In this document: positions 5,701 to 62,762 of the stretch, piece by piece | How the letters are laid out: every line of letters begins with the position of its first letter | Numbering within the stretch: position 1 is the stretch's first letter | From: Podarcis vaucheri | Lineage: Eukaryota | Assembly: GCA_965113315.1 (NCBI GenBank) | Contig: OZ220363.1 | Length of the DNA stretch: 64,000 bases | Direction: 5' to 3' (one strand) | Made by a program: the position numbers and the translations under genes | Notes under the pieces: generated by a model | Seen by the model: only the letters and a program-made list of their open reading frames with translations | What the model was told of the DNA's origin: nothing | Database searches by the model: none

Positions 5701-8700
5701 CCTAAGAATTTGTGGGTCTCCTGGTTTTGCTGTTTGTTTCACCAGAAAGGCCACATTTCTAAGCAGCATTTTGAGGGGAACAATTTCTAGTCTTTAGTAG
5801 ATTTTTTCCCATGTGACCAGCATCTATAGGTAAATGCCCATACTTGGTTGCAATAGTTGTTCTTACTGTCATGTTGGGAGCTGTCCTCTATGTAGAATGC
5901 TTTTTTTGAATTATCCAGTAATGTTCACTTTGTGTGATGAAAACCATGAACATAATATCCTTTTATCCCAAATAAATCTTATAAAAGGATAGAATTGCTC
6001 TCTACATGCACAATTTCTTTAAATCCAGATTACAGATCTTTGAATTAAGGCTGGACAAAGCAGCATTTGGAGAAAATTTCTTCACTGACATTTGTTTTAA
6101 CAGTAATTACTGCTTTGCACAGAAAAACGAGCAACCTTTCCATCAGTTACCTCAGCTGAAGCCTACATTTTGCAGCATTAGTCTGAATTTGATACGTGCA
6201 TCAATGTACTCTGTCAAGTAATATGGCTCTGATTACAAGCTGGGGTAATATAGCCTTGGGGAAGAATATTGAAATCTGGAGTATTTCTTCACATGGCTTT
6301 TCACTATATTATTCCATTTTACAGTGACCAAATATCAGGGCAAGACAATGAAAACCATCTTGTTAGAGAGTGAAAATAGGCTAGTGAATGCCATACATGA
6401 AAAGTTTTTGAATGTATGTGTGCACATTTTTTGTGCAAATCCTGAACCAGATTCTTGCACCCGCCACTTAAAAAGTCTGCAGCCTACAGAACTTTCAAAT
6501 AACTTTAAGGCTGTGTGCTTAATTGGAAGCAAGCCTTAATGAAATCCATGGAATAAACATGCATAGGATTTAACAGCACACTACTGCCCTAAACCAATTA
6601 GTCAAAGGATGTAATGGAATGATTGAAAAGAAGAACAGCAATTATACTCTGCAGGATTTCAACAAACTTCCCATACATTGATGAGGTTCTGAATATTCTG
6701 CCGACAAGTGAGGTTGTGCTAAACTGCTAGTAGTACTCTTCTTTCATTTAAAATCCGTTTTGGTTCATCTTTCCAGTTTTTCATTCCATGTCTGATAAGT
6801 AAATCTCATACAAAATAATAGAGTAAAATCAAAATTGTATTTTCTGTTATACCTAATGCAGTGCTTAAGCAAACCAAACACAAATTCTCAAGAATAATGA
6901 AATATCACAATAAAATATTAGATCTCCACCTACAGTTTATCCAGCGAAGTATATTATTTTGAATTCAGTGAACACCAACATGTTTTGATTCTTTTTTTTT
7001 GGGGGGGGAGGGGTATTTTCTCAGAAAATAGATTATAGAGATGCAAAGCTCTGAAGAATTACATCTTGTATCTTTCTTCCAAATCTTTACCAAGATTAAT
7101 CCACCAGGCAACTCTATTTGCTGGCACTGGTGTTAGGAGTCGATCTGAAGGAACCCCCTCAGAAAATATAGGAACCCATATTTTCATGAGAATGAGCATA
7201 GTGGTTCAGGTACAAGACTAGACTCGGTGAGTGCTATACTTAAAGCACTAAACTGGAGAGAATGGAGAAAGATAAAAACTGATCAAGATAGGGACTGATG
7301 GACTGAGAAATATCCAGGTACACAAAATATACTTCCTGGAGGGTATAAGCACTCACACAAATGGTGATTCACCACAAAAAGGCTGGATGAAAGAAATTAA
7401 ATGTTAACTAAGTGAATTATTAAAACATATTGATGGAGTTTCTCACTGCCAAGCGGCAAAATGCTTATCTCTGACCAATCTGACCTCTCAGCCAATTTTG
7501 GTTTTTTTACAGCTCTATTTTGGAAAATGATGTTTGTTTTTCTTAGTGTTAAAATTTAATACAATTATTAATTAGAATAAGAAGAACTGTCAGCTAGATG
7601 ACTATGGTGTTCATTGTGGGGGAAAGTAGAAAGATCTCCCAGGAAATGTAAATTTAGACTTAATTATGAGTAGGAAATGCTTGCTGAAGAATACCTTATT
7701 GTTAGTGTATTAGGATCAATATCTGAATAAGGACATTTACTTACCTTAAATAAGGTAGAGGTTCTGGGGACTAATAAGGCTTGTTCATGTTGTCACTATG
7801 CACACCATACAGGAGCAACTATAGAAAGGATATCAGAAGGGGGCCATTCGAGCTTTCTCTGACAGGAATATGCTTACCTTGAAATATCATTATTTTCTCT
7901 TATTTCTTTACAGTGGCATAATGCTCACTGCTCAGGACAAAGCCAAATGAAATGCATAATTCCAGGGCATGTGCAGAGTTCCAGCTGAACTGAACTTCTC
8001 AGTGACACACGAAGCACAGTGGATATGGACTAATAGGATCAAGTAAAAAAATCATTACAAGTTGATCACAGAACAGCAATTAGATTACACCGAGTACCTA
8101 CCTCATGCAATTATATATTACCTAACAGTATCAGAAAAACTCCAGCAATATCAGCACTCCCCCCCCCCCATGGCTGTGGATTGTGATCAATGGAAATCTC
8201 CCCTAAAAGAGGACACTGAAGCAGGACAGAAGGTTTGTTTAATCCCTTTAAAGTATTCCTGGCTTGTTTCCCCTATGTTAGAAGATGCCAAATGCATAAC
8301 AAAGGCTGAGAGGGAAGCTTCTCCTATATGAAAATATTATAAAGGGCTAAGAGTTTCTCTCTGCATGTGCAATTCCTTTAAATCCAAAGAACAAATCAGA
8401 TTAATGATGTTATAGTTCTTTCTTGAGGAAGCAGCAGTTTGGACATAAAATTCTGGGTGATGGATTTTGATCACTAAATATTGCTGTAAAAATGCATTCA
8501 GCCAAGTTACCATTTAGAAGCTCTTCACTTCAATAAAAGCTTTAGAATATGCCGCATAGAAATGCTTTGAGATTTACCACCACATGTTTGCTTTGTTTTC
8601 AGCTGTTGTGAGAGGGAAAAAATAGTGATGTGAGGCTACGTGAAACAGAACTTAATTCAATACATATAAAGATCAAAGCCTCGAGCACCAGGGTTGGCCC

Positions 8701-43465: not shown

Positions 43466-46309
43466 TGCTTCATCTGCTTGCTGCTGTCTGTAATGGCCTC
43501 ACCTGATGAAGTTTTCAATGGTTCATTTTCCTGACTGTTGGTAAAAAGGCTTTCTTCATGCCTTTGTAAATTTTGCAAGTATGCCCAGTATCACCAGAGT
43601 GCTGAATGCTCTGACACAGTTTTAGCCAGTAGTTATTGACACATCATGTGGCATTATCTTTGAACACTAGCATATACATAAAATCAATACAAATTCAATA
43701 CAGAACCAGCTGGGATAAATACTGTAATAGACTTGTTGAAAAAGGGATATTTTTACCATATGCTAAAAAGATAATAGATACATTGTTGTTGTTGTTAATT
43801 TAGGGGAAGAAGGCACACAACGCCTTTGTTTTAGTGGAAACTGTGTACAATTTTAATGCAATTTTTGTTGCATTAAAAAAAAATACCCACATGGGACCGA
43901 TTTCTGATTATGTACATGCCAATCTTGCATGGACTGGAGATAGGCTGATCTGCTATCCCTGCTCTTGGAAAAAGCCTAGGATTAGCTACCGCTACTGTTT
44001 TGCTTTTTAAAAAACAACTTCCACCGACTTCTGTTCTTCTAACAACACTTAACAACAATGCCTGGTTTTTAAAGCACATCAAAGAGTTGATTTACAAATG
44101 TCTGTTATCATTTCCTTCTCCTGAAGATTATTTGAGGCAAGCTTCTTCTTGTTTTTTCATTCTGAATTTTCCAGCTGCTCTGGGAAGGGACTATAAAATG
44201 TTTCTTCCTTAAGGGAGCCACTAGGGTTTTTGAGTATTATAGTATTCAGAGATGTGTTTTACACACAGCGGTAGCCAAACATGAAGTGTTAAATGGTTGT
44301 ACTGGGGCCAATACAGAGGCAATTTGGCATGCAAATTATTTGCAGGAATGCTGCTGTTTTTCATGAGTCTGATACATTCTGGTCGTCCCTGAAGATGCTT
44401 GTGGGAGACTGGGGTGAAAATTACAGAGTGTTTAAGAATTTTAATGTGATTTTTATTGCATTCTAGTTTTTAATAGAATTCATAGCTTGAAAGTGCAGTT
44501 GAAAAGCAGCTGTGATTGGGCTTTCTTTACACTGTTGCTTTTACCTTAGAATTCTAAATGTACATCCATGCCCCAGCATTCCTATTATCTAAGCAAACAC
44601 TGGACAGAATATTGGACTTGTAGCTCCCTGTGCCACATAGGACTCTTGAGGCTGAATCTATGTTTCTAAGAATCCTCCATGTTGCAGAATGTGTTCTGAC
44701 ATTCTACAAGCTAAACAATTTCCACAACAGGAAAAATAAGTCTCTTATTTTCTGATTGCTGAGAAAACATACTGTTATGTAACACATAACAAAAACCCCA
44801 AAACTTTTGGTGACAGCATTTTGTTAATACTCCAGGTGGTTCAAGATGATTGTGGGAGTCCCATGCAAAAACTGGCAATACACCCCAGAACTAGTAATGT
44901 ATTAAATGTTTACACATATTCAGGAAATTCTAGGGCACAATGTCTCCTAAGAGAGGAGTGAGCAGAAGGTAGATTGGGACCACAGTATCGCTGAGAGGTG
45001 GATAGGAAGGAAAGCAGAGCAGCCCAGCAATGCCTCTGACGTTTTGGTCAACAATGAACCCCCATCAGCTCCAGCGCCTACCAGCCTCCACTGATCAGCA
45101 GGAGTTTTGATTTTAATAATAATAGCAACAAAAAGACATTTTCTCCCTTCTAAATCAAGATAATGAAGGCTAGGTGGAAAATATTGATTAAGCTATATTT
45201 CTTGACATTGCTTGCTAAAATAATAAGATGAACACATAGTGGAAACATCCTTGAATGTCTTGTTCGTACGTAGAAAGTCTTTGTTTAGGAAATGCTGGCA
45301 TGTAGTTGGTAGACTGGGCTTCAGACAGTTCATTGTTTTAAGTATGACTTCAAAAGACAGGACAGAAATATTTCTGAAGTTCAAGCAAGTTTAATTCTGT
45401 AATCAAGGGAGAAATATGAAGATGAAGCAAATATTGGTCTTAACATATAACCTGGAGCTAAATAACTCCATTGTTGAAGAGTGCTTATCAGAGACCCTTT
45501 TAAGTTAGATTAGCTTGCTCTAAGGGTGCCTCCAGACCCTAACTGTGGGAGGGATTTAGGTTTCTGCAATTGAAGTGCATGACAGCACTGTCATCCCAGT
45601 CTAGCAAATCCCTTTTTAAAAACCTGACATTTTAGGAAAGCAACAAGGAAGTGTGCTTTGTTTTAATTTCTTGGAAGCTGTAAAATGTGGGGTGAACAAT
45701 TTGCTAATGGGAAGGCGTGTAAATATCCCACAAGCTGAGCTTGGTTCCTGTTAAAAAGTGGCATTGCCAACCACTACTGAAAAGCATCCAGAGGTCTGGT
45801 AAGGAAGCAATGAATAGAGCTGCAACTGAGTCAGGCTGCTCAGGGACCCTGTCCAGGAGTCATTAGCCAGAGCCCAGCCCAACTGACCATTGACACTGAG
45901 CCTGGCAAGCAGAGAGGGGAAATGAGTCTCAGTAATGTACCCCAATATTCATTCTTTCCTCTCTACTCTACCTCTTGTTCCTCCATAGAGGAAAAGCATT
46001 ATCCAGAGTGGTCCTAATGTAATTCCTTTCCATTCCAATAAAAAGTAGTGATAGAAATAGATGATACAGCTACTTCACAGGGACTTGGGGAGGTAATGAC
46101 TTTAATTTGTTTGTAGATCTCAGATGAAAGATGCAATAAAAATGCAAATAACTATTATTATTTATGTAGCTCTGTTATAAACATGACCTAGGGATGTACA
46201 GGAGATCAGCCTAAACTGCCAGGTTCCACAGCTGCTCTGCTCTAAGGCAGGGCCATTTTATTTAGTGATGTAAAGGACAGTTGCCCAGCTGTCAGTTAGC
46301 ATCAGAAGA

Positions 46310-46681
46310 CCGGTACACTCAATACAATACAAAAACACACAAAAAACACAAAATGTGCAAACCGAAACAATAACTCGCACAGCTTTAAAGGCCATAGATT
46401 ATTAGCCAAAGGCCTAGGAGAAGAGAAATGTTTTTGCCAGGTGCCTAAGTATATCTATTGAAGGCACCAGGTAAGCCCCTGCCCCTCTGAGGAGAGCATT
46501 CCACAAGGGAGAAGCCACTGCAAAAACGGCCCATTCTCACATTGCTGCCCTCTGGACGTTTCACCGAGGAGGCACACAAAACGATCACAGGGTCTGGGTT
46601 GGTTCATATGATTAGAGGCAGTACTTGATCTACTGCAGTCCTGAGCTGTTGAAAGCTTTATAGTTCAAACCCAGCACTTGA
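46310..46681 (-). mobile_element. Old L2-like LINE 3' part, left half; interrupted by a nested insertion and continuing at 54955-55175
   Basis: ...AAAGCTTTATAGTTCAAACCCAGCACTT joins to TGAACTGGGCCCAGAAACTAAT... in the pattern of squamate L2 3' regions. Confidence 0.65.
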
Positions 46682-46714
46682 GATTTATGGATGAAGGCAG
46701 TATACAAATTTAAA

Positions 46715-46932
46715 CAAAGCGTGTTCTCACTAAGGGAGAGCACGTGTTGCGGCTGGGGCCAGGCAAAGCACCCTTTAGTTGCCAGGCAGAATTGTTGGAA
46801 GGGGCCTGGCCAGGATTGGTGTTGGCGTTGCTGGGGCAAATAGTATGTTGCCAATTTGGGGGTGGAGATCAGAGGATATTTAAGCAAGGCCCACAGAGAG
46901 TTGCTTTCTCTTTCACTGTGGGCATCGGATCA
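46715..46932 (+). repeat. Split direct repeat A1 (218 bp); copies A2 53301-53518 and A3 54116-54333
   Basis: CAAAGCGTGTTCTC...GGCATCGGATCA occurs three times, identical by eye. Confidence 0.97.
46877..46883 (+). promoter_or_regulatory. TATA-like box in repeat A (putative element promoter)
   Basis: TATTTAA ~30 bp upstream of a pyrimidine-rich Inr-like TTTCACT, close to the 3' end of A. Confidence 0.45.
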
Positions 46933-47099
46933 GCTCGGATCGAACCATAGCGAAGGACTGGTTGTATACAACTTATTCCATTCCCAATCTCCTCTCCTTT
47001 TAATTTTATTTAATTTACCTATTTCTTTGCCTCTGGTAATTTGCCATATTCCTCTTCATATTTTCTCTTCTTTCTGAGTTTTCTTGGGCTTCTTAATTT

Positions 47100-47950
47100 C
47101 AGTTAGACCCCTGACGCAGCTCCCCCGGGGGCTTCGGGCCCTGCGGGCCGCTGGGGGTGGCCGGGTTAGGCACCAGACCCTAGGCTTACGGTCCGGTACA
47201 CGGCTGAAGCAGGCGAAGGGGGTCGGTCCTTTGGGACCCGGCTATTGCCGGCTGGCACTCTTGGCCTGAAGCAGCAGGCCCGGGGGGATCGCAAGGCCAG
47301 GGGTCTGTAGTTAATAGCTTAGGCTCATTTAATCTCGCCCCCTTCCCCCCTTTTCCCTCCCCCCTTTTTCTTTACCCGTATTGGATCGGGCACTTACCGG
47401 GTCGTCGGTGGCCTCCTTTCTCGTGCGCTCCGACGCGCCTGGCTCGGCCGAGTCAGGCCGAGTGGGTGGAGGCGCCGCGCAGGCGCCTGGGTGAGCGGCC
47501 GATTCGCGCTTCGCGCTCTCGGCGGCTAGGCCCGCGAGGCCTTTAGGCGCCCGAGGCCTCGTTCGAGAGGCTGAGCGGTGCTTTCCTCCCCCCCCGGGTT
47601 GTTGTGGGGCGGCGGGGGAGCCGGCGACAGGCCGCGGGGCGGCTTCCCGGCCTAAAGAAGGGCCTCCGCGTTCCCTCCCCCCACGCTCACGCGGGTGGCG
47701 GTGTTGGCGCGCTCCTACCGGGCCGCTTCGGGTGGTGGGGCTGCGTAGGCGCCGCTGCTCGGTTCGGCCTCCTCGGCCCATAATCGGCCTAATTTAGGCC
47801 TTTGGGAGGGGGCCTGCTGACCAAGGGCGGTGAGGGCCGCCATTTTGGTGTTTTGGCGCGAGCGCCAATTTTTCTTTAGCCTTTCTGCATTAGTGTGCTG
47901 GCCTCTAGTGGCCATTGATAGCAAGTGCAGCCTATAATTGGCCTAGGCTG
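47100..47950. promoter_or_regulatory. CpG-island-like GC-rich 5' leader of the Ngaro element
   Basis: Very high GC and CpG density against a CpG-depleted background; YY1-like GCCGCCATTTT near 47837. Confidence 0.7.
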
Positions 47951-48102
47951 CCGGTGTGCCACCTGCTGGTGAGCGGTATAATTACACCTGCCTGGAATTA
48001 ATTGGTTTACTTTGCAGTTTTAAGCTATTTCTTGGTCAGAGTAAGTTTTATTCCTAAAATTACTTGCATTCATTGTTAATTTGTATACCGTTGGCAGCAG
48101 GT

Positions 48103-49734
48103 ATGGCTCCAAAGAATAGGGCGGCAAAGAGGCCTGGGCCGGAGCCCTCAGCAAAGCAGCCCATGAAAGCAAAGAGGCCTATAAAGGGCCCGTCCCAGGC
48201 TTTGCGGTCACCTCGGCCGGATCAGTCGATGAGCCGCATCCAGGCCATGATCACTGGTCTGGCTGGTGACCCTCCTGCACTGGCCCGATTGGAGGCTGAA
48301 ATGAATGGCCTGTTACATCGTTGTTCTACTCCATCAACTTCTACTGCAGGGCTGGCCCCTCCTGCTGGCATTGCCTCTTCGGCGTCCTCTTCTAGTGAAG
48401 ATGAGGGAGGGATTGTAGCAGCTGGAGATTCCTCTCCTGGCGCCTTGGCCCAGGCCCCGGACTTACCAGCAGGACCGGCGCCTGCACGAAGGGGTCAGGG
48501 GGGTGCCAGGGGTACGGCCAATAGAAGGGCGTCAGCTAGGATCAGAGCAGCACAGGCGCCGGGCGTCCCGTCTCCTGCGGCTGCACGATTGGTCCCTGGT
48601 CATTCACAGATTCTGTCTTTTCAGTCTCTTCCTGGTGCAATTCAGCAAAGAAGAGGAGCTTCAAGAGGCGGGCCAAGCGGAGTCGGAGGGTCACTTCATC
48701 ATCTGCCTCAGTCAGTTCCAGGCGTCGTGATGCAAGGTGACGCATCCGAGTCCTCTGTGGAGGACAGCCTTCCACCACCTCCAAAGTCGTCTTCGGGTGG
48801 GCTCCGTCGCCGAAAAAAGAGTTCTAGGAGGCACGCCAAGAAGAGACGGAGGGACACTTCATCCTCTTCCGCAGGTACTTCGTCCCAAACATCCAGTAGT
48901 GACGAGGAAGCCTCACTCAAGCTATACTGGGGCTTTGCAGAGACCTCTGGTCTCCCAAAATGGGCTTGGGAGCGGAGGGCAAACTCTCATAGGGCTAGGT
49001 ATGGGGCGGTGCAGGACTGCCTGGAGGGGGTCCTCATGCCTGACGTGAAGGTCTCTACCAATTCGGCTAGGGACATTATTCCCGGTGCCCACTTGCATAC
49101 AAAACTGCGGTCCAGGATTCTGGATGGCCGTTACATTGATATATTTAGTTTGGCACCCCCTCAGGAGTGCCAGGACTCGCAGGATAGGGGTGTGGCAGCC
49201 ACAAAAAAGAGGGTGGTCTTGCCAAAGGTGGAAAGGACCTTCGAGCGATGGTTGGATAGTTTCCAGGTGTTCGCTGGAGTGGTGGCTGCGGCTTACCCAC
49301 AGAGATCCATGCACTTATGGGTTTATTTGTCCATAGTCCGCTCAGCGTTTACGATGGCGGGAGCGTCTGCTGCAATTTCTTATGATGAGAATTTCAGACG
49401 CAGGGCTGCCAAGATCCCCACTGCCCGCTGGGATCGTAAGGATTTAGATGTCTGGACTACTTATGTAGCCCCACGCATCGATAATAAGGTCCCTGAATTG
49501 CAGAAACCTAAGAATGTGCCAGCTAAAATTGGTCGTAAGTTCTTTTGTTGGGACTTTAACAAGGGTACCTGTCAGCGCCAGTTCTGCAGATATTCCCATA
49601 GTTGTGAGAAGTGTGCAGGGAACCACCCGGCATCTTCTTGTGCGGGGGTGCGACGGCCCTTTCGAAAAGGAGGGGGCTCTCAGCAGCCCCCAAAGGCCGC
49701 CCCCCAGGCTACAGTCTCCGGAGCAGGAAAATAG
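48103..49734 (+). CDS. gag: Ngaro ORF1 Gag-like protein (first ATG 48103; 543 aa)
   Basis: Low-complexity basic/Ser-rich N-terminus with an NLS-like RRRKK...KKRRR. Conserved-looking core (I..G.YIDIF.L, W...F.VF, YDE.FRR) and C-terminal CWDFNKGTC...C.Y.H.C..C...H....C zinc finger. Confidence 0.9.
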   Translation: MAPKNRAAKRPGPEPSAKQPMKAKRPIKGPSQALRSPRPDQSMSRIQAMITGLAGDPPALARLEAEMNGLLHRCSTPSTSTAGLAPPAGIASSASSSSEDEGGIVAAGDSSPGALAQAPDLPAGPAPARRGQGGARGTANRRASARIRAAQAPGVPSPAAARLVPGHSQILSFQSLPGAIQQRRGASRGGPSGVGGSLHHLPQSVPGVVMQGDASESSVEDSLPPPPKSSSGGLRRRKKSSRRHAKKRRRDTSSSSAGTSSQTSSSDEEASLKLYWGFAETSGLPKWAWERRANSHRARYGAVQDCLEGVLMPDVKVSTNSARDIIPGAHLHTKLRSRILDGRYIDIFSLAPPQECQDSQDRGVAATKKRVVLPKVERTFERWLDSFQVFAGVVAAAYPQRSMHLWVYLSIVRSAFTMAGASAAISYDENFRRRAAKIPTARWDRKDLDVWTTYVAPRIDNKVPELQKPKNVPAKIGRKFFCWDFNKGTCQRQFCRYSHSCEKCAGNHPASSCAGVRRPFRKGGGSQQPPKAAPQATVSGAGK

Positions 49735-51340
49735 TGTTCTTTCCTCTTTAGCTTATACCCCAGTTAAGTTACAGCCATTGTTGTCATGGTTACAATTATA
49801 CCCTCTTCAGGAAGCAGCGTCTTATTTGCGTGATGGTTTCTCTCTGGGCTTTCGAATCCCAGTGGCGTCAACTCCAGTAGCTAGGAACCCTTCAAACCAG
49901 AAGTCGGTGAGGGAAATGCCTGAAGTCGCGCGTAGGAAGATTGGGAAAGAACTGGCTTTACGACGTATGGCCGGCCCCTTTGCTGAGCCCCCCTTTCCCA
50001 ATCTTCATATTTCACCCTTAGGTATAGTTCCTAAAAAAGCTCCAGGGGAATTTCGCCTGATTCACAACCTTTCTCACCCTAGGGGCACATCAGTAAATGA
50101 TGTTATTCCCCCGGAGCTTTGTTCTGTGAAGTATGCTTCGCTTGATCAAGCGATCAAAATGATAAGGAAATTTGGGCAGGGTGCCCTGCTGGCCAAATGT
50201 GACATTGAGTCTGCATTTCGGTTGCTTCCAATTCATCCAGACGACTTCTGGCTGCTGGGATTTCAGTTTGATGGGGAATTTTATTTTGACAAGGCCATGC
50301 CCATGGGCTGCTCAGTAGCCTGTGCCGCCTTTGAGTGTTTTAGTTCCTTTCTGGACTGGGCCCTACGCAAAAGAACTGGTTTGGGCGGGGTCACTCATTA
50401 TCTCGATGATTATTTATTGGCCTCAGCTAGTGATACGGGAGACTGTGTGGTGTTGCTGCAGGCCTTCGCGGCCTTAACTGAGGAACTGGGCGTACCGTTA
50501 GCCGCTGAGAAGACTGAAGGTCCTTCTACGCAGCTGACTTATCTGGGTATTCTGTTGGATACGGTGGCGCAAACTTCTAGTTTGCCGGCAGATAAGATTC
50601 TCGCGCTGAGAGGTGTTATTTCTGACCTCATTCCCTTAAAAAAGGTTACTCTGCGACAACTGCAGTCGTTGCTGGGCCACCTAAATTTTGCTTGCAGGGT
50701 GATTGCTCCGGGGCGGCCTTTCTGTTCCCGTCTGGCCAGACTTATGTCTGGTTTGCGGTCCCCGAGGCATAGAGTGCGCTTGTCAGCCCAAGTGCGTGCT
50801 GATCTTCGTATTTGGTTGGAATTCCTGGAGGAATTCAACGGCGTGTCGCTTTGGCAGGACACCCTGAACCTGTGTAATGATTTTCAGGTGCACTCTGATG
50901 CTGCAGGGTCACTGGGCTTCGGTTTGTATTGGGATGGCAGGTGGTGTGCCGAACGTTGGCCTCTGGCTTGGCGTGGGGAAGCTATAACTCGGGACTTAAC
51001 TTTTCTTGAGTTTTTCCCTATTGTAGTGGCTGTCCATTTGTGGGTCGAGCATTTCAGGGACCGGCGCGTATGTTTTTGGACAGATAACCTGGCGGTGGTG
51101 AACGTGCTGGCCAAGCAGTCTTCACGATCACCTAGGGTATCAGCACTGCTGAGGGTTTTCGTTTTGCATTGCTTGCGCCTTAATATTGTATTTTCCGCTC
51201 GTTTTGTGCCTGGAGTATCTAACGAGATTGCTGATGCTCTGTCCCGTTTTCAGATGGAGCGATTCAGGTCCCTGGCGCCAGTGGCTCGAGACCGTCCGGA
51301 ATTTTTCCCGGATCATCTCTGGAACCTTGGCAGCACTTAG
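49514..51340 (+). CDS. pol: Ngaro reverse transcriptase / RNase H
   Basis: SPLGIVPKK, FRLIHNLS, KCDIESAFRLLP, MPMG, HYLDD; RNase H residues SDA, LEFFP, TDN, ADALSR. Overlaps gag by 221 nt. Confidence 0.96.
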   Translation: MCQLKLVVSSFVGTLTRVPVSASSADIPIVVRSVQGTTRHLLVRGCDGPFEKEGALSSPQRPPPRLQSPEQENSVLSSLAYTPVKLQPLLSWLQLYPLQEAASYLRDGFSLGFRIPVASTPVARNPSNQKSVREMPEVARRKIGKELALRRMAGPFAEPPFPNLHISPLGIVPKKAPGEFRLIHNLSHPRGTSVNDVIPPELCSVKYASLDQAIKMIRKFGQGALLAKCDIESAFRLLPIHPDDFWLLGFQFDGEFYFDKAMPMGCSVACAAFECFSSFLDWALRKRTGLGGVTHYLDDYLLASASDTGDCVVLLQAFAALTEELGVPLAAEKTEGPSTQLTYLGILLDTVAQTSSLPADKILALRGVISDLIPLKKVTLRQLQSLLGHLNFACRVIAPGRPFCSRLARLMSGLRSPRHRVRLSAQVRADLRIWLEFLEEFNGVSLWQDTLNLCNDFQVHSDAAGSLGFGLYWDGRWCAERWPLAWRGEAITRDLTFLEFFPIVVAVHLWVEHFRDRRVCFWTDNLAVVNVLAKQSSRSPRVSALLRVFVLHCLRLNIVFSARFVPGVSNEIADALSRFQMERFRSLAPVARDRPEFFPDHLWNLGST

Positions 51341-52227
51341 TTTTACAGGGAGTAGCTGCATCTATTGCCCCCTCCACATTGCGGTCCTATAAGAAGGCTT
51401 GGACCGATTTTTTGCATTTTACTGGGCGGTCAGTGGGAGGGGAAGTGCACACACCTCATTCTACCACACAAGTGCTCAAATATTTGGCGCATCTATTTCA
51501 GATGCGGCGGGCAGCTAGGACTCTGAGGTTGCATTCAGCTGCAATTTCCTTCTTTAGCAAGGTCTATTTTAATAATGATCCTTGTGGGAAGTTCGTTGTG
51601 CGCAAGGCTTTGGAGGGTTGGGGGCGTCTCAGCCCGTCCAGACCAGCTACAAGGAGGCCTATAACGTTTGGTTTGTTGACCGAGATGCAAGGTAAATTGA
51701 AGGGCATCTGTTGGTCCAGGTTTGAGGCTCGGTTGTTTTCCGCAGCCTATTCGCTAGCCTTTTTTGGGGCCCTGAGAGTTGGGGAGGTGGTGTTTGAACC
51801 TAAACAGGATGGTGGTTCCAGAGGCTTGTTGCTGCAGGACGTGAGCCTGTCTCAGTCGGAACTGCAGGTCCATGTCAGGAGTTCCAAAACTGATCAACTG
51901 GGTAGGGGAGCGGTTATTCGGCTCCCAGCAACTGGGATGGGGGGCCCTTGCCCAGTTAAGGATCTCCAGAAATATATGGCTTTGCGACCTCCCGGAAGTG
52001 GGCCCCTGTTCATTCATGAAGATGGGCGGCCATTGGCGCGCCATCAGTTCGCCGGTGTCTTGCGCAAAGTCGTGGCTGCCTGTGGCCATGCAGCCTCTGA
52101 ATTTGCTCCTCATTCCTTCAGGATTGGGGCTGCAACGACAGCTGCCCATTGGGGCTTGTCGGTTAAAAGGATAAAAGACCTGGGCCGTTGGAAGTCGGGC
52201 GCATACAGGGGTTATGTGCGGAAATAA
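51235..52227 (+). CDS. Ngaro tyrosine recombinase (frame open from 51235; no ATG before the conserved N-terminal region)
   Basis: Catalytic set R (GALRVGE), K (SSKTDQ), HxxR (HSFRIG), W (GRWKS), Y (YRGYVR); N-terminal APSTLRSYKKAW. Confidence 0.95.
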   Translation, partial: CSVPFSDGAIQVPGASGSRPSGIFPGSSLEPWQHLVLQGVAASIAPSTLRSYKKAWTDFLHFTGRSVGGEVHTPHSTTQVLKYLAHLFQMRRAARTLRLHSAAISFFSKVYFNNDPCGKFVVRKALEGWGRLSPSRPATRRPITFGLLTEMQGKLKGICWSRFEARLFSAAYSLAFFGALRVGEVVFEPKQDGGSRGLLLQDVSLSQSELQVHVRSSKTDQLGRGAVIRLPATGMGGPCPVKDLQKYMALRPPGSGPLFIHEDGRPLARHQFAGVLRKVVAACGHAASEFAPHSFRIGAATTAAHWGLSVKRIKDLGRWKSGAYRGYVRK

Positions 52228-52841
52228 TGTTGATTTCATGTACTCACATCTGTTGTTTTACCCTAGGTCTCCCCACTATCAGGGTCTGGATAGTGGGGCA
52301 CAGTATTGTGCATTGGGCGGCTTGCAGAGCTCGGCAATCCGAATTGGGAGCTGGCCTTGGCTTTCCTCAGCACGTACAAGTGTCCTGGATCTCCAGAAGG
52401 GGGATGCTGTGGAAGGAATTCTTACCACTCATGCAGAGACGGGTTCTGCTGGAGGGCCCCCCAACAGCGATTGTGGTGCAGCTTGGGGAAAATGATATGG
52501 TTTCCTCTTCTTGTTATGTTTTACGTGCTATTATTTTGCAGGATTTGAGGGACTTGGCGGCCTTGGTACCCGCTACTAAGATAATTTGGTCCCAGTTGCT
52601 TCAGCGTTGCATCTGGAGGGGTAGTCCCTGCCCTGTGGCCACCGAAAGGGTGCGAAAGCGTATCAATTCAGCTGCGAGCAAACTGGTGTTTGATATGGGT
52701 GGGCTTGTGATTCCCCACCCAGATATTAATGTTAAAGCCACTGATTGCTACAGGTTGGATGGGGTTCATCTTACCTCAGTTGGGAATGATGTATGGTTGA
52801 GGTCAGTGGTGGCTATGTTGAGGGTGTGTTTAAGCTTGTGA
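52227..52841 (+). CDS. SGNH/GDSL-family hydrolase (esterase-like) accessory ORF
   Basis: Block I VWIVGHSIV, block II RRG, block III QLGENDM, block V DGVHL. The ATG at 52227 overlaps the recombinase stop (TAATG). Confidence 0.88.
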   Translation: MLISCTHICCFTLGLPTIRVWIVGHSIVHWAACRARQSELGAGLGFPQHVQVSWISRRGMLWKEFLPLMQRRVLLEGPPTAIVVQLGENDMVSSSCYVLRAIILQDLRDLAALVPATKIIWSQLLQRCIWRGSPCPVATERVRKRINSAASKLVFDMGGLVIPHPDINVKATDCYRLDGVHLTSVGNDVWLRSVVAMLRVCLSL

Positions 52842-52870
52842 GTGGTTGGCGGCGAGCGTAAGGGCTCGGG

Positions 52871-53300
52871 TGGCGGTTAGGCATTGGTTTAAATTGGTTG
52901 GTGGAGGGGTATGGATTGGCTGTGCCTGCCCCTCAGGTGATGCTGCTGCACGGGAATTCCGTTAAAGGAATTCAGGGGCTTACCATCCTTTCGTCCAAAC
53001 CCCTGGAATCGGGTTTGGGCCGCGTAAGCCCCTAGGAGCATGTGGGGAGAAGCTGAGGGTCTGTGTCGCAGCTCCAGTTATCCCCGAACTTGTTCCTCCA
53101 CACTGGCTTCCGCTGGAATCCGGAAGTCAGTACTGTCCCCATGGCGGGGGGACAGATAGTCTTAACCAATGCCTAAGCAACCACTCACAATTATGTATGA
53201 TAATAAAGTTGTGGCCAAAATTATGCCAAAAACCTTAAACAAAAATTATGTGTGAAGTGTGAGTTATTGGGGTAGGGGTGTTTTGGGGGACCTCAGCACG
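52871..53300 (+). repeat. Split direct repeat B1 (430 bp); copies B2 53686-54115 and B3 54501-54930
   Basis: TGGCGGTTAGGCATTGG...CCTCAGCACG three times. B3 differs by C>T at 54751. Confidence 0.97.
53202..53207 (+). terminator. Polyadenylation signal AATAAA in repeat B (also 54017 and 54832)
   Basis: AATAAA followed by a GT-rich downstream element (TGTGTGAAGTGTGAGTT). Confidence 0.6.
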
Positions 53301-53518
53301 CAAAGCGTGTTCTCACTAAGGGAGAGCACGTGTTGCGGCTGGGGCCAGGCAAAGCACCCTTTAGTTGCCAGGCAGAATTGTTGGAAGGGGCCTGGCCAGG
53401 ATTGGTGTTGGCGTTGCTGGGGCAAATAGTATGTTGCCAATTTGGGGGTGGAGATCAGAGGATATTTAAGCAAGGCCCACAGAGAGTTGCTTTCTCTTTC
53501 ACTGTGGGCATCGGATCA

Positions 53519-53685
53519 CCCGCCCGCCCTCCCTTGTTTGGGCTTTCGCTTTGACCTTGCTATTGCCTGTCATGGGGTCGTTCGCCTTGGTGCGGGGGCC
53601 CGGTAGGAATTTTGCCATTTGGCTGATTAGTGTGTGCCACTTGGTTTTTGCCTACCGCGTAGCAAATCGTCACAACTTGTAAGGT
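53519..53685 (+). repeat. Spacer C1 (167 bp) between A and B; copy C2 54334-54500
   Basis: Identical by eye; not present at the 5' end of the element. Confidence 0.95.
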
Positions 53686-54930
53686 TGGCGGTTAGGCATT
53701 GGTTTAAATTGGTTGGTGGAGGGGTATGGATTGGCTGTGCCTGCCCCTCAGGTGATGCTGCTGCACGGGAATTCCGTTAAAGGAATTCAGGGGCTTACCA
53801 TCCTTTCGTCCAAACCCCTGGAATCGGGTTTGGGCCGCGTAAGCCCCTAGGAGCATGTGGGGAGAAGCTGAGGGTCTGTGTCGCAGCTCCAGTTATCCCC
53901 GAACTTGTTCCTCCACACTGGCTTCCGCTGGAATCCGGAAGTCAGTACTGTCCCCATGGCGGGGGGACAGATAGTCTTAACCAATGCCTAAGCAACCACT
54001 CACAATTATGTATGATAATAAAGTTGTGGCCAAAATTATGCCAAAAACCTTAAACAAAAATTATGTGTGAAGTGTGAGTTATTGGGGTAGGGGTGTTTTG
54101 GGGGACCTCAGCACGCAAAGCGTGTTCTCACTAAGGGAGAGCACGTGTTGCGGCTGGGGCCAGGCAAAGCACCCTTTAGTTGCCAGGCAGAATTGTTGGA
54201 AGGGGCCTGGCCAGGATTGGTGTTGGCGTTGCTGGGGCAAATAGTATGTTGCCAATTTGGGGGTGGAGATCAGAGGATATTTAAGCAAGGCCCACAGAGA
54301 GTTGCTTTCTCTTTCACTGTGGGCATCGGATCACCCGCCCGCCCTCCCTTGTTTGGGCTTTCGCTTTGACCTTGCTATTGCCTGTCATGGGGTCGTTCGC
54401 CTTGGTGCGGGGGCCCGGTAGGAATTTTGCCATTTGGCTGATTAGTGTGTGCCACTTGGTTTTTGCCTACCGCGTAGCAAATCGTCACAACTTGTAAGGT
54501 TGGCGGTTAGGCATTGGTTTAAATTGGTTGGTGGAGGGGTATGGATTGGCTGTGCCTGCCCCTCAGGTGATGCTGCTGCACGGGAATTCCGTTAAAGGAA
54601 TTCAGGGGCTTACCATCCTTTCGTCCAAACCCCTGGAATCGGGTTTGGGCCGCGTAAGCCCCTAGGAGCATGTGGGGAGAAGCTGAGGGTCTGTGTCGCA
54701 GCTCCAGTTATCCCCGAACTTGTTCCTCCACACTGGCTTCCGCTGGAATCTGGAAGTCAGTACTGTCCCCATGGCGGGGGGACAGATAGTCTTAACCAAT
54801 GCCTAAGCAACCACTCACAATTATGTATGATAATAAAGTTGTGGCCAAAATTATGCCAAAAACCTTAAACAAAAATTATGTGTGAAGTGTGAGTTATTGG
54901 GGTAGGGGTGTTTTGGGGGACCTCAGCACG

Positions 54931-54955
54931 CAAACAAACAAACAAACAAACAAAC
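54931..54955. repeat. (CAAA)n microsatellite, the Ngaro target site
   Basis: Directly abuts B3; the left junction reads TTTAAA-CAAA-GCG. Confidence 0.9.
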
Positions 54956-56963
54956 TTTGAACTGGGCCCAGAAACTAATCAGCTTCCAATGCAGTCAGGC
55001 CAGGATCAGTGTAATAAGCTCAAACTATCTTGCCCCAATGAGCACCCTGGTTGCCAAATTCTGCACCAGCTGAAGTTTCCAACCATCTTTAGAGGCACCC
55101 TCGCGTATAAAATAGTGCAATAATATAACCTGGAGATTACCAGAGCATGGCTGACAAAAGTTAGGTTATCCCTGCCTTTTCTGTACTGAGCTTCAGTTTA
55201 TTGGTTCTCATCCAGTAAACCTGTGGATTTGTTAGTTTCCTCAGTCCAGGAAGTGGCAAGTTAGGGCTTCTGCAGTAGTATGGATTTTGTAGGATGGCTA
55301 ACTTTTGGTTCACGTATTGCTTCAGAAAGTACAAATTAGGTAATTAGTCTTTAAATGCAAACTGAAGCACATCTCTCCCCCATCCCTACTCTTTAGGTTC
55401 AAAGATTTGAGGCAATGTGTGCAGACAGTATTCTCTCTTATTGCTTGGTGAGAAATTCATTTAAACCTTCTTCCATTGTTTGTAGCCCATGAGGGAAGCC
55501 ACAGCAAGGATGGATATCACACAGCTAGTTAACCTAGCTTCTTATTTTATTTATTTGCTTTTCTGTTTTATATTATCATCAATGCATAGTATGTTATGGT
55601 TAACCTATCATAACAACATCGAAAAAGCCCTGTTGGATAAAAAGTGAATTTCCAAAGTGCACGCGTCCATTTCCTCCACATTGCCATGCTGAACCAGTCA
55701 AGGATGAAGTGAGACCACACAATGCATTTGGTGGAGATGCAGGATGTAACCATTGTTTATCAAGATTATTTGAGGGAACAAGAAAAAAGAGGTTGACGGC
55801 TGTTAATTCATGGGTCACAGAACAAAGATAGTGCTGGTATATCCCTAGTTCAATTTATGTTGTCCAATATATGGAAGCAGAAACTTTCCCAACCAAATAG
55901 ATATTTTATATGATCCTGAAGCATGGCACCTAAAATTAGAACTCCTGTGACTGATAGTTCCAGTATGACAGTCTCTTCATAGATCTGCCCCCCACCCCCA
56001 AATAATATTGATGAGTTTTGTGTTTTGCTTGTGGGTTTTAATTTCCTTGGCTGGTTGGTTATGGAGGGCAGGGGGCATTTTTTTCACAGGAACTATTCAA
56101 GCCTTCTGGGCTGCTGGTGTCTGATGCTAGTATCCGCTATATAGAGACCTCCCATTTTCAAAAGAAATCCACAGAGATTCCTGAACTTGAGCACTGCTAT
56201 CAAAAAGAACAGTCCTTCCTGCAGGTTTTCATTTCAAAATAGTTGCTTACAGCCTTAATTTAAACTTGAGTAACAAATGTGAGGTTCCTTCCCCCATCCC
56301 AAGAGACACATAGTTCACATAAGTGAAAAAGTAGAAAATTCATCTCTCTCTCATTCCACCCCCACCCCCTCTGCAGCCAGCCACTGCTGGTGCTTCAATA
56401 GTGATAAAGGGAGGGGGGCTGTCATGAGATGGATTGAGGGAGGCTTTGGGACTGAATGATCCAGTGTCTACCCATTCCCATAAAACACTCCCACAAGGGA
56501 GGCAGAATATGTCGGGATTCATGCCTGCCTTCAGGAGAAACTGGCCACTCTCCAGGCACCCGGCTTGAATCACCGGTTGACCTCCCTGTCTACATTCCCG
56601 GCAAGATCCAGGCAAGGTCGCGATCGGCGATCCTCCCCAGCGTGAAGAGGACACACCACTCTTTTCTGCCCCTAGGCAGGGGAAAGAGATAGACAGAAAC
56701 GTATTTACATGTCTTTATTTCTGTCTTTGCAGCATTACAGAGAAACACGTCTGCTCTCTTCAGACTCCAACAGCAGAGAGACACAAACTCCACCTACTGT
56801 ACATCCTGCACAGCTCATATTACACTGTGAGCTAATTCTGGTGCTTCGCACTGTGAAAAGACTGCCCCTTTGTTTCCCACGGAACAGTACCCAACATTCT
56901 TATTATGTTTTGCTTCCAAGCTAGCAGCTGGCAGCCGCATTGCTTCTTTTCCGTAACAGAATA

Positions 56964-57194
56964 CAGTGGTGCCTCGCAAGACGAAATTAATTCGTTCCGC
57001 GAGTTTTGCCGTCTAGCGAATTTTTCGTCTTGCGAAGCACGGTTTTAACGGTTTAACAAAGTCGCGAAAAGTTTTCGTCTTGCGAAGCAAGCCCATAGGG
57101 GAATTCGTCTTGCGATGCAAATCGAAAACGAAAAAACCTTTCGTCTAGCGAGTTTTTTTGTCTTGCGAGGCATTCGTCTTGCGAGGTACCACTG
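56964..57194. mobile_element. Tc1/mariner-type MITE, family 1
   Basis: TA-CAGTGGTGCCTCGCAAGACGAA...TTCGTCTTGCGAGGTACCACTG-TA. Confidence 0.9.
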
Positions 57195-57211
57195 TATACC
57201 AAAGGCTTGTA

Positions 57212-57437
57212 CAATGGTACCTCAGGTTACATACACTCCAGGTTACAGACTCCGCTAACCCAGAAATAGTACCTCGGGTTAAAAACTTTGCTTCAGGATG
57301 AGAACAGAAATCATGTTCCGGCAGCGCGGTGGCAGCAGGAGGCCCCATTAGCTAAAGTAGTGCTTCAGGTTATGAACAGTCTCAGATTAAGAACAGACCT
57401 CCGGAACGAATTAAGGACTTAACCCGAGGTACCACTG
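57212..57437. mobile_element. Tc1/mariner-type MITE, family 2 (reverse orientation)
   Basis: TA-CAATGGTACCTC...GAGGTACCACTG-TA. Confidence 0.88.
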
Positions 57438-57669
57438 TATACTTATTCACCACCTCCTATCCTGTGCAACCCAGCAGGCTATAGGAAGTGGTGGTACCTG
57501 CACTCAGCTCTGCCCAATGCCCACCTTAGAATTGCTTTGTCAGAGAGCTGAAGCAGTTATTGAGAATATGCAGAAGTTAAAGCCCACAGTTGTCTTTGAG
57601 GGGTTTTGCAGGGCAGGCACAGTTTAAATTTTACAACTTTCTGCTTTCCTCTTTTAGTTGACGTCTAAG

Positions 57670-61772: not shown

Positions 61773-62138
61773 GGGACGCGGGTGGCGCTGTGGGTAAAAC
61801 CTCAGTGCCTAGGACTTGCCGATCGCATGGTCAGCGGTTCGAATCCCCGCGGTGGAGTGAGCTCCTGTCTTTCGGTCCCAGCTCCTGCCCACCTAGCAGT
61901 TCGAAAGCACCCCTAAGTGCAAGTAGATAAATAGGTACTGCTTTATAGTGGGAAGGTAAACGGCGTTTCCGTGTGCTGCGCTGGTGCTGGCTCGCCAGAG
62001 CAGCTTTGTCACGCTGGCCACGTAACCCAGAAGTGTCTCCGGACAGCGCTGGCTCCCGGCCTTTTAAGTGAGATGAGCACACAACCTTAGAGTCGGACAC
62101 GACTGGCCCGTACGGGCAGGGGTACCTTTACCTTTACC
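61773..62138 (+). mobile_element. Sauria SINE (full length)
   Basis: Head GGGACGCGGGTGGCGCTGTGG, B-box GGTTCGAATCC, (ACCTTT)n tail, TSD TATGTTAARTATA. Confidence 0.92.
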
Positions 62139-62222
62139 TATGTTAAATATATGAACATTTAGAGCACCTGTGTGAGCCTCATTGAATCCGGTGGGAATTA
62201 CTCCCAAGTAGGTAAAGTTACA

Positions 62223-62762
62223 GGGCGCGGGTGGCGCTGTGATCTAAACCACTGAGCCTAGGGCAGGGGTCAGCAAACTTCCCGCGCCTCAGGCCGGTGT
62301 CTCCAGTGCCGATCGTGTGGCGGGCCAGAGGGCGGGGGAGCGCATGCCCATACACGTATGCACAGGCTATTTCACGCGCACTTCCGAATTGGAGGAGCAC
62401 CAGAATAGCTTGTGTGCATGTGCACGGGCCTCCTCTGACCTGCATGTGTGGGTCTCATCTCGCTTTCAGGCCGAGGGAGCCGGTGTTTGTCCACAGACAG
62501 CTTTCCAGGTCATGTGGCCAGCATGACTAAACCGCTTCTGGCACCACAGAACAGCATGACAGAAACCAGAGTGCACGGAAACACCATTTACCTTCCTGCC
62601 ACAGCAGTACCTATTTATCAACTTGCATTGGCATGCTTTCGAACTGCTAGGTTGGCAGGAGCTGGGACACAGCAATGGGAACTCACTACTCCGTTGCGGG
62701 GATTTGAACCACTGACCTTCTGATCGGCAAGCCCAAGAGGCTCAGTGGTTTAGACCACAGCA
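62223..62762. mobile_element. Composite: Sauria SINE head (+, 62223-62262), hAT-like terminus and GC-rich insert, then Sauria SINE on the minus strand (~62450-62762)
   Basis: The SINE head stops at CCTAGGG, followed by CAGGGGTCAGCAAACTT (hAT MITE-type end); a reverse-complement SINE body follows. Confidence 0.7.

What the first reader, a model, noticed from the sequence alone, without database searches (positions are those of the whole stretch)
53601..53657. ENE-like (poly(A)-capturing triple helix) hairpin confined to spacer C
Seen: CGGTAGG-AA-TTTT-GCCA-tt-TGGC-loop-GCCA-ct-TGGT-TTTT-G-CCTACCG. This is a 7-bp lower stem, opposing U4/U4 internal-loop tracts and an upper stem; a second copy lies at 54416-54472. 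Known: ENEs (KSHV PAN RNA, MALAT1, plant and fungal transposon RNAs) have this architecture and protect poly(A) tails by U-A.U triples. Inference: C lies after B1 and ~360 nt before the B2 AATAAA. Only the read-through genomic RNA, not mRNAs ending at B1, would be stabilised, which would separate the RT template from the messages.
Basis: partly seen in the sequence, partly recalled or inferred. Interest (0 to 1): 0.75.

Follow-up and report, generated by a model that had tools for sequence, protein, structure and literature searches.

The report
ENE-like hairpin in lizard Ngaro retrotransposon
A lizard jumping gene carries, near its 3' end, a well-kept RNA hairpin shaped like the clamps that some viruses and plant transposons use to grip and protect their poly(A) tails, but neither the gripping nor the RNA it would protect has been shown.

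Summary
The hairpin is real. It lies in spacer C of an intact, young Ngaro (tyrosine-recombinase) retrotransposon of a squamate, laid out A1-ORFs-B1-A2-C-B2-A3-C-B3. It folds at z = -4.7 and persists in 44 of 44 modelled contexts. A strict ENE descriptor hits only its two copies in 64 kb. The second copy comes from an 815-bp tandem duplication and is not independent. In related lizard reads the stems are kept while the apical loop changes, and 3 of 4 visible 5' loop strands keep four or more U. No two-sided covariation was seen. None of 24 distant Ngaro spacers has an ENE, so it is lineage-specific. Best reading (0.5): a single-domain ENE-like poly(A) clamp. Main rival (0.3): an RT/Gag recognition signal. 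The claim that only genomic RNA benefits is not supported. Use of the B1 poly(A) site is unshown, and A2 is identical to A1, so A2 could drive a ~550-nt A'-C-B' RNA that carries the hairpin too. So could SIRE-like A-C-B units, which appear far more abundant than the coding part. Poly(A) binding and stabilisation are untested.

The parts
46715..46932 (+). A1 repeat (left end); TATA-like TATTTAA at 46877
   Evidence: 100% identical to A2 and A3 over 218 nt; promoter role inferred, not tested
48103..49734 (+). ORF1, gag-like by position
   Evidence: Open frame 48058-49734, ATG at 48103; no Pfam hit
49469..51340 (+). Reverse transcriptase ORF (YLDD)
   Evidence: Pfam RVT_1 E 6.2e-14; no internal stop
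51235..52227 (+). Tyrosine recombinase ORF
   Evidence: Pfam Phage_integrase E 4.8e-6, just under the curated cut-off; best named relatives from lacertid lizards, 53-63% identity
52167..52841 (+). ORF in the place of the Ngaro SGNH hydrolase; candidate splice acceptor ending at 52268
   Evidence: Open frame; no Pfam hit; label from recalled SGNH motifs and PMC9210276 passages; tblastn hits behind the YR in distant loci
52871..53300 (+). B1 repeat; 13-bp long-range stem 52877-52889/53164-53176; AATAAA 53202-53207
53301..53518 (+). A2 repeat; TATA-like box at 53463
53519..53685 (+). Spacer C, unique to the 3' end; starts with a C-rich motif
   Evidence: motif at the start of C in 9 of 12 complete elements and after A1 in 0 of 12
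53601..53657 (+). ENE-like hairpin: lower stem, AAUUUU/UUUUG internal loop, CCA/UGG stem, 2x2 pyrimidine loop, UGGC/GCCA stem, 12-nt apical loop
   Evidence: variants
53657..53678 (+). Candidate tether strand: can pair with B2 54021-54041 (10-bp plus 6-bp helices), bringing the predicted 3' end to the base of the hairpin
   Evidence: Folding model only; not better than shuffles as a free duplex
53686..54115 (+). B2 repeat; AATAAA 54017-54022, candidate CA cleavage site 54042-54043, GU-rich tract behind it
   Evidence: cleavage site inferred from canonical spacing, not observed
54116..54934 (+). Tandem duplicate A3 (54116-54333), C' (54334-54500, second hairpin 54416-54472), B3 (54501-54934); followed by (CAAA)n
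   Evidence: 815-bp period, one mismatch at 53936/54751; same layout with period 384 in L086

Best explanation
The hairpin is a single-domain ENE-like RNA element, gained by the squamate branch of Ngaro retrotransposons, on the sense RNA. Shown: its sequence, its predicted fold and its selective retention among related lizard copies. Inferred: an RNA that contains C is cleaved and polyadenylated about 20 nt after the B AATAAA; the tail's adenosines pair with the 3' U tract, the 5' U tract adds Hoogsteen contacts (4-5 U.A-U triples), and the two G-C pairs closing the lower stem take A-minor contacts; deadenylation is slowed. Every RNA with C upstream of a tail would benefit: the full-length RT template, but also a ~550-nt RNA started in A2 and transcripts of solo A-C-B units. 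RNAs ending at B1, if they exist, would not.
For: Descriptor hit only at the two copies in 64 kb, with shuffles of C at 13, 1 and 3 of 5000. Lower and upper stems at P>=0.95 in 44 of 44 start/end contexts, U tracts open. G-C pairs flank the loop, which Evade mutants show to be essential (PMC12501189) and which the review lists as part of the definition (PMC7583470 passages). U tracts on the same strand on both sides are not a DNA dyad. The plus strand folds better as RNA (-23.1 vs -18.0) but not as DNA (-8.7 vs -9.1). In one search the bin 53628-53678 is the deepest of 30 in X1, X21 and X23 and third in X11. The three substitutions listed inside the hairpin fall at the outer pair (C>T, G.U-compatible), the apical loop and the 2x2 loop. 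Four loose-end consensuses keep CCA-YY-TGGC while the apical loop changes, and one has U5 opposite the U5. Divergent copies begin to align exactly at the AATAAA (53202: 43 records in X1, 10 reads in X23).
Against: No two-sided (compensatory) change was visible; 315 substitution rows and 517 loose ends were not shown, so invariance of stems and tracts is not established. One loose-end consensus (33 reads, X21) has AAUUUCCC on the 5' strand (three U), another variant inserts a U after G53614, and a fifth (6 reads) has unrelated sequence in place of the 5' half. The 5' AA between the lower stem and the U tract is not part of the PAN or MALAT1 pattern as I recall it, and it can pair with the 3' tract at a cost of only 1.4 kcal/mol. 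0 of 24 distant spacers carry the motif and 0 of 11 distant B repeats have AATAAA/ATTAAA. No RNA 3' end, strand or expression of the element was shown: reads lay on both strands, 84-89% of them ran on into unlike sequence, and most ORF bins had zero depth.
Confidence: 0.5

Rival explanations
1. The hairpin is a cis signal for replication on the RNA (Gag packaging or RT docking/priming, in the manner of a psi or epsilon element). The pyrimidine-rich loops are protein-binding or U.U-paired loops, not poly(A) receptors. C must be on the template and on any non-autonomous A-C-B unit.
For: C is confined to RNA that can serve as template. The termini are covered about 100-2000 times deeper than the hydrolase ORF in DNA contigs (depth is not copy number), as expected if short units with the cis signals are mobilised. 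SIRE of Trypanosoma cruzi equals A2 + ~30 bp + B2 of VIPER (PMC6681497 passage). The primer of DIRS-order elements is unknown (PMC7192593 passages). The 2x2 pyrimidine loop and the sequence 3' of the hairpin are also kept, which an ENE does not need. A variant with three U is tolerated.
Against: A core replication signal might be expected in distant Ngaro, but their spacers share only the C-rich start, not this fold. The match to the ENE pattern (opposed U tracts between G-C pairs, downstream AATAAA) would be coincidence.
Confidence: 0.3
2. The conserved letters act as DNA. Two direct copies of the quasi-palindrome (G)CCA-YY-TGG lie 22 bp apart with an inverted CCAAT box between them and GC boxes at the start of C, and serve as promoter or protein-binding sites. 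The upper stems are a by-product of the repeated palindrome.
For: The two palindromes explain both upper stems without RNA selection. The apical loop keeps 11-12 nt, and 3 of 4 loose-end loops contain ATTGG; 53629 A>G, which makes that box, is in 14 of 15 and 5 of 5 X21 reads.
Against: It does not explain the 6-7-bp lower stem or the two same-strand T tracts. The window copy and one loop variant lack ATTGG, and the G allele is only about 10% of DNA depth at 53629.
Confidence: 0.1
3. It is one of several ordinary hairpins of a highly structured terminal region and has no special role; the U tracts are incidental.
For: Four other 57-nt windows of B1-A2-C fold as well or better, though all are richer in G+C. 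The relaxed descriptor hits 61 of 300 shuffles. No Rfam match.
Against: Strict descriptor chance is below 0.3% for C. The segment is among the best-kept parts of the terminus across divergent copies while its apical loop drifts.
Confidence: 0.1

Closest known systems
Single-domain ENE of KSHV PAN RNA
   Same: Stem-loop with a U-rich internal loop on both strands, flanked by G-C pairs, upstream of a poly(A) signal (PMC7583470 and PMC13541005, passages).
   Different: PAN forms five U.A-U triples shown by crystallography; here 4 (5 in one variant) are only possible. Two adenosines precede the 5' tract, a 2x2 pyrimidine loop interrupts the upper stem, and the AATAAA is 360 nt away with the folded B domain between.
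Transposon ENEs (Evade/Copia93 of Arabidopsis; plant, fungal, slime-mould and stickleback elements)
   Same: Sits in a non-coding spacer between the ORFs and the terminal repeat of a retrotransposon; Evade's ENE raises RNA stability and mobility (PMC12501189, parts 1-2 read).
   Different: Host element is a tyrosine-recombinase retrotransposon with split direct repeats in an amniote. One U-rich loop, not the double domain usual in plants. No function tested.
MALAT1/MEN-beta ENE with a genomic A-rich tract
   Same: B holds CAAAAACC (54042-54049), complementary to the 3' strand GGUUUUUG, at the predicted cleavage site.
   Different: Such a match occurs in 874 of 5000 shuffles of B, does not form in co-folding, and the purine/pyrimidine layout differs from MALAT1's interrupted tracts.
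Ngaro retrotransposons (DIRS order) and the SIRE unit of VIPER
   Same: A1-ORFs-B1-A2-B2 repeats, RT, YR and a fourth ORF (PMC9210276 passages); an A2-spacer-B2 unit as in SIRE (PMC6681497 passage).
   Different: An extra A-C-B unit in tandem. The passages I saw describe no structure in the spacer; distant Ngaro spacers lack this hairpin.

Membership tests
Single-domain ENE | Stem-loop with a U-rich internal loop on both strands between two helices | tested here: met
Single-domain ENE | G-C pairs next to the U-rich loop (A-minor receptors) | tested here: met
   G53606-C53652 and G53607-C53651 close the loop below; C-G pairs follow a G.U wobble above. Departure: AA lies between the lower stem and the 5' tract
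Single-domain ENE | About four or more consecutive possible U.A-U triples, kept across relatives | tested here: inconclusive
   Four in the window; 3 of 4 visible variant 5' strands keep >=4 U, one has 3; most variant rows hidden
Single-domain ENE | Stems supported by covariation | tested here: inconclusive
   Only one one-sided change seen (53601 C>T); no full relative sequences could be aligned
Single-domain ENE | Lies near the 3' end of a polyadenylated sense transcript | tested here: inconclusive
   AATAAA 360 nt downstream and kept in divergent copies; no 3' end or strand shown by 146 and 114 RNA reads
Single-domain ENE | Forms a triple helix with oligo(A) and stabilises a reporter RNA | not testable with these tools
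   needs bench assays
Double-domain ENE (dENE) | Two U-rich internal loops separated by a short duplex, with an adenosine triad | tested here: not met
   The second loop is only 2x2 pyrimidines
MALAT1/MEN-beta-type ENE | Genomic A-rich tract complementary to the loop | tested here: inconclusive
   8-nt complement at 54042-54049; 874 of 5000 by chance; not formed in co-folding
MALAT1/MEN-beta-type ENE | tRNA-like structure downstream for RNase P cleavage | not tested
   No dedicated tRNA scan was run; Rfam gave no such match over 46300-55200
Ngaro retrotransposon | Split direct repeats A1 ... B1 A2 B2 | tested here: met
Ngaro retrotransposon | RT and tyrosine recombinase ORFs after a gag-like ORF | tested here: met
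Ngaro retrotransposon | SGNH hydrolase ORF after the YR (vertebrate forms) | tested here: inconclusive
   ORF present in that place, 0 Pfam families; identity rests on recalled motifs

The most novel reading that the evidence does not exclude
Squamate Ngaro elements, and very many SIRE-like A-C-B units, make a PAN-like non-coding RNA of about 550 nt from the A2 promoter. In it the 22 nt right after the hairpin pair with the stretch between AATAAA and the cleavage site, so the poly(A) tail starts at the foot of the ENE and is clamped as a pre-tethered third strand. In folding models that tether has P>=0.86 in 12 of 12 contexts that start at 53480-53510 and end at 54032-54050, and P<=0.21 in 8 of 8 that run to the end of B. 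This stable RNA would be the template or helper that lets the short units outnumber the coding element.
Probability: 0.15. Interest if true: 0.8.

Novelty: new member of a known kind. Interest (0 to 1): 0.5.

Why it matters
Known transposon ENEs are mostly from plants and fungi, with slime-mould and stickleback cases (PMC7583470 passage). A working ENE in a tyrosine-recombinase retrotransposon of an amniote would widen that range. It would also give a first handle on the RNA biology of split-direct-repeat elements, whose 3'-end formation and priming are not known. The element here is intact with identical repeats, so the question can be tested directly. If the hairpin is instead a packaging or priming signal, it would be a first candidate for one in this group, as far as my searches reach.

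Tried and rejected
Rfam: three chance-level matches over 46300-55200 and none over 53560-53700; I did not check whether Rfam holds a transposon-ENE model. No genome is held for this window. Exact DNA patterns of the hairpin found 0 stretches in genome contigs and viral contigs; YR and RT searches of viral contigs found no relatives. No RNA holder was listed for the stretch, which is no evidence on expression. RNA reads laid come from a different species label than the two DNA sets, are few and mostly 82-95% alike, so strand ratios were not used. The C/B tether is not better than shuffles as a free duplex (101 of 300; the best duplex was elsewhere in B) and is not general in 13 distant elements. 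Clustering of three >=7-nt C/B complements near the AATAAA occurred in 63, 241 and 77 of 3000 shuffles and was noticed after the fact. No differential hiding of the AATAAA between B1 and B2 contexts. Pairing of the C-rich start of C with a G-rich end of B as a self-primer had no consistent position in 12 elements. An L058 hairpin that looked U4/U3 by eye failed the relaxed descriptor. Long contexts holding both B1 and B2 lose the B stem in equilibrium folding, so they do not test the tether in genomic RNA. Literature: no paper held 'triple helix', 'ENE', 'transposable element' and 'DIRS' together; a looser search gave three papers, none linking the two; motif strings were found in no paper. 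The 2016 survey of transposon ENEs (PMC4864102) is not held, so I cannot say whether it or its supplements list a DIRS-order element.

Full report
Setting. The finding lies in the 3' end of an 8.2-kb retrotransposon at 46715-54934. Four open frames follow A1: a gag-like ORF, an RT (Pfam RVT_1, E 6.2e-14), a tyrosine recombinase (Phage_integrase, E 4.8e-6, just under the curated cut-off) and a fourth ORF with no Pfam hit. The best named relatives of the recombinase are from lacertid lizards at 53-63% identity. Repeats map as A1 46715-46932, B1 52871-53300, A2 53301-53518, C 53519-53685, B2 53686-54115, then a tandem copy A3-C'-B3 to 54934. A1, A2 and A3 are identical and the 815-bp duplication has one mismatch. 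This is the Ngaro layout of split direct repeats (PMC9210276, passages) with one extra A-C-B unit. The element looks young and intact.

The observation. The hairpin is there as described and folds at -23.1 kcal/mol, z -4.69, 0 of 200 shuffles as good. A strict ENE descriptor finds only its two copies on both strands of the window; shuffles of C hit in 13, 1 and 3 of 5000 at lower-stem minima of 5, 6 and 7. A relaxed descriptor is weak (61 of 300). The lower and upper stems hold at P>=0.95 in 44 of 44 modelled transcripts, with both U tracts open. The outermost pair is mostly open in context. U4/U4 depends on a G.U wobble. The second copy is a duplicate, not evidence.

Close relatives. No genome is held, so I laid two contig sets (X1, X11) and two raw RNA runs (X21, X23) on 52200-53700 at 82% likeness. 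The bin 53628-53678, the 3' half of the hairpin and the 21 nt after it, is the deepest of 30 bins in X1 (1.37 million), X21 and X23, and third in X11 (137,000), behind the two bins around the AATAAA. Bins in the middle of the fourth ORF are at about 600-1,250. The tool warns that depth is not copy number, but a gap of two to three orders of magnitude suggests many short or divergent elements that share these blocks. Inside the hairpin the substitutions listed are 53601 C>T (G.U-compatible), 53629 A>G (apical loop) and 53640 C>T (2x2 loop), plus a T after 53614 and a C after 53630. 315 further substitution rows were not shown, so I cannot claim the stems are invariant. Four loose-end consensuses from RNA reads (3, 33, 10 and 10 reads) show the upper part in divergent copies. 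All keep CCA-YY-TGGC, while the 11-12-nt apical loop changes. The 5' loop strand reads AAUUUUG in the window and AAUUUUU, AAUUUUGU (seen twice) and AAUUUCCC in relatives, so 3 of 4 keep at least four U. A fifth consensus (6 reads) has unrelated sequence there; 517 loose ends were not shown. The 3' halves attached to these variants were not visible letter by letter. Divergent copies begin to align exactly at the AATAAA (53202), so that hexamer is kept in lizards. No two-sided change was seen.

RNA evidence. 146 and 114 reads were laid. They cover both strands, 84-89% run on into unlike sequence, most ORF bins have no depth, and no place where many molecules end was found. They most likely come from copies inside host transcripts (inference) and say nothing on B1 versus B2 use.

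Distant relatives. A recombinase alignment gave 80 loci from metagenomes (best 80 of 539) and 49 from genome contigs, at about 30-45% identity. From their self-repeats I defined 13 spacers C (48-1433 nt) and 11 B1-to-B2 intervals; the other 105 loci lacked visible B1/B2 pairs. None of these 24 has the motif even under the relaxed descriptor, and none of 11 B repeats checked has AATAAA or ATTAAA. What they share is a C-rich motif at the start of C, in 9 of 12 complete elements including the window and after A1 in 0 of 12. L086 has the same B-A-C-B-A-C-B tandem with a 384-nt period. So spacer C and its duplication are general to Ngaro, but the U-rich hairpin is lineage-specific. No amphibian, fish or other vertebrate spacer could be fetched.

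Mechanism. The best reading is an ENE-like poly(A) clamp (0.5). The definition in the review is a stem-loop with a U-rich internal loop next to G-C pairs for A-minor contacts, and four consecutive triples are enough in MALAT1 mutants (PMC7583470, passages). Evade shows that such an element in a retrotransposon spacer raises RNA stability and mobility, and that the flanking G-C pairs are needed (PMC12501189, parts 1 and 2 of 5 and passages). The hairpin meets the structural part. It departs by the two adenosines before the 5' tract, judged against PAN and MALAT1 as I recall them; these can pair with the 3' tract for 1.4 kcal/mol. Cleavage, tail capture and stabilisation are all inferred. The main rival is a packaging or RT signal (0.3): C is on the template and on any short unit, the primer of this order is unknown (PMC7192593, passages), and SIRE is exactly such an A2-spacer-B2 unit (PMC6681497, passage). 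A DNA-level reading (0.1) explains the upper stems as two palindromes 22 bp apart around an inverted CCAAT box, but not the lower stem or the same-strand T tracts. The two functions ENE and packaging signal do not exclude each other.

C does lie after B1 and 360 nt before the B2 AATAAA. But nothing shows that messages end at B1. A2 carries the same TATA-like box as A1, so if A1 is a promoter, A2 should start an RNA of about 550 nt that holds the hairpin and ends at B2. Solo A-C-B units would do the same. In folding models of that short RNA, 53657-53678 pairs with 54021-54041 and places the predicted 3' end at the foot of the hairpin. The 10-bp helix has P>=0.86 in 12 of 12 contexts starting at 53480-53510 and ending at 54032-54050, 0.07-0.96 for earlier starts with those ends, and <=0.21 when the RNA runs to the end of B. 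Both partners lie in the deepest bins. Against it: the duplex is not better than shuffles when tested free (101 of 300), variants with an extra A in the C strand appear among the loose ends, and I found it after the fact. I give that picture 0.15.

Novelty. My searches found no paper linking an ENE to a DIRS-order element, but the 2016 survey and its supplements are not held and the review names slime-mould elements among its hits without saying which. A second id that I recalled for a structural paper was not held either. PMC13541005, PMC8547959 and PMC5767303 were seen as passages only. Verdict: a real, selectively kept, ENE-shaped hairpin in a new host class; probable new member of a known kind; function unproven; interest 0.5.

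Noticed in passing
window 53519-53535; L035, L073, L088, L092, L105, L115, L123, L127 at the start of C: A C-rich motif (CCCRCCC-like) marks the A2|C boundary in 9 of 12 complete elements and never follows A1 (0 of 12); the other three start with a T run. It is the only feature of C shared with distant Ngaro and is a candidate replication signal.
   Followed up: partly
window 52836-52873 and 53178-53190; L022 ~2270-2310, L042 ~6680-6712, L011 ~4438-4482: Only B1 is preceded by a small hairpin between two TGGCG(G) motifs, and the same layout is seen by eye in three distant hydrolase-bearing loci. In the window a perfect 13-bp helix 52836-52848/53178-53190 is available only upstream of B1; it could mark B1 off from B2.
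   Followed up: partly
window 52877-52889/53164-53176 (and the B2, B3 copies); L022, L042, L011: B is closed by a 13-bp long-range stem just before the AATAAA; distant hydrolase-bearing loci show a similar closure followed by TG(T/C)GGCC but without AATAAA at that spot.
   Followed up: partly
window 46711-46718, 53297-53304, 54931-54956: The B|A junction and both element ends share CAAA, and the right end is followed by a (CAAA)n run, consistent with recombinase insertion into a CAAA microsatellite.
   Followed up: no
window 52240-52268 and 48027-48047: Splice-acceptor-like sequence (branch-point-like motif, pyrimidine tract, AG) inside the start of the fourth ORF, and donor/acceptor-like sites before the gag ATG, suggest spliced messages.
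   Followed up: no
window 52863-53321 and 53526-53700: Terminal blocks are covered 100-2000 times deeper than the fourth ORF in two lizard contig sets, hinting at a very abundant SIRE-like or solo-repeat population.
   Followed up: partly
L081-L129: Many bacterial and archaeal genome bins from sponge, coral and worm samples hold contigs with eukaryote-type Ngaro elements, some complete, probably host DNA in the bins.
   Followed up: no
window 56958-57443 and 61774-62693: Inverted-repeat element with 25-42-nt arms (MITE-like) and a pair of related repeats in opposite orientation that resemble a reptile SINE (label recalled, not tested).
   Followed up: no
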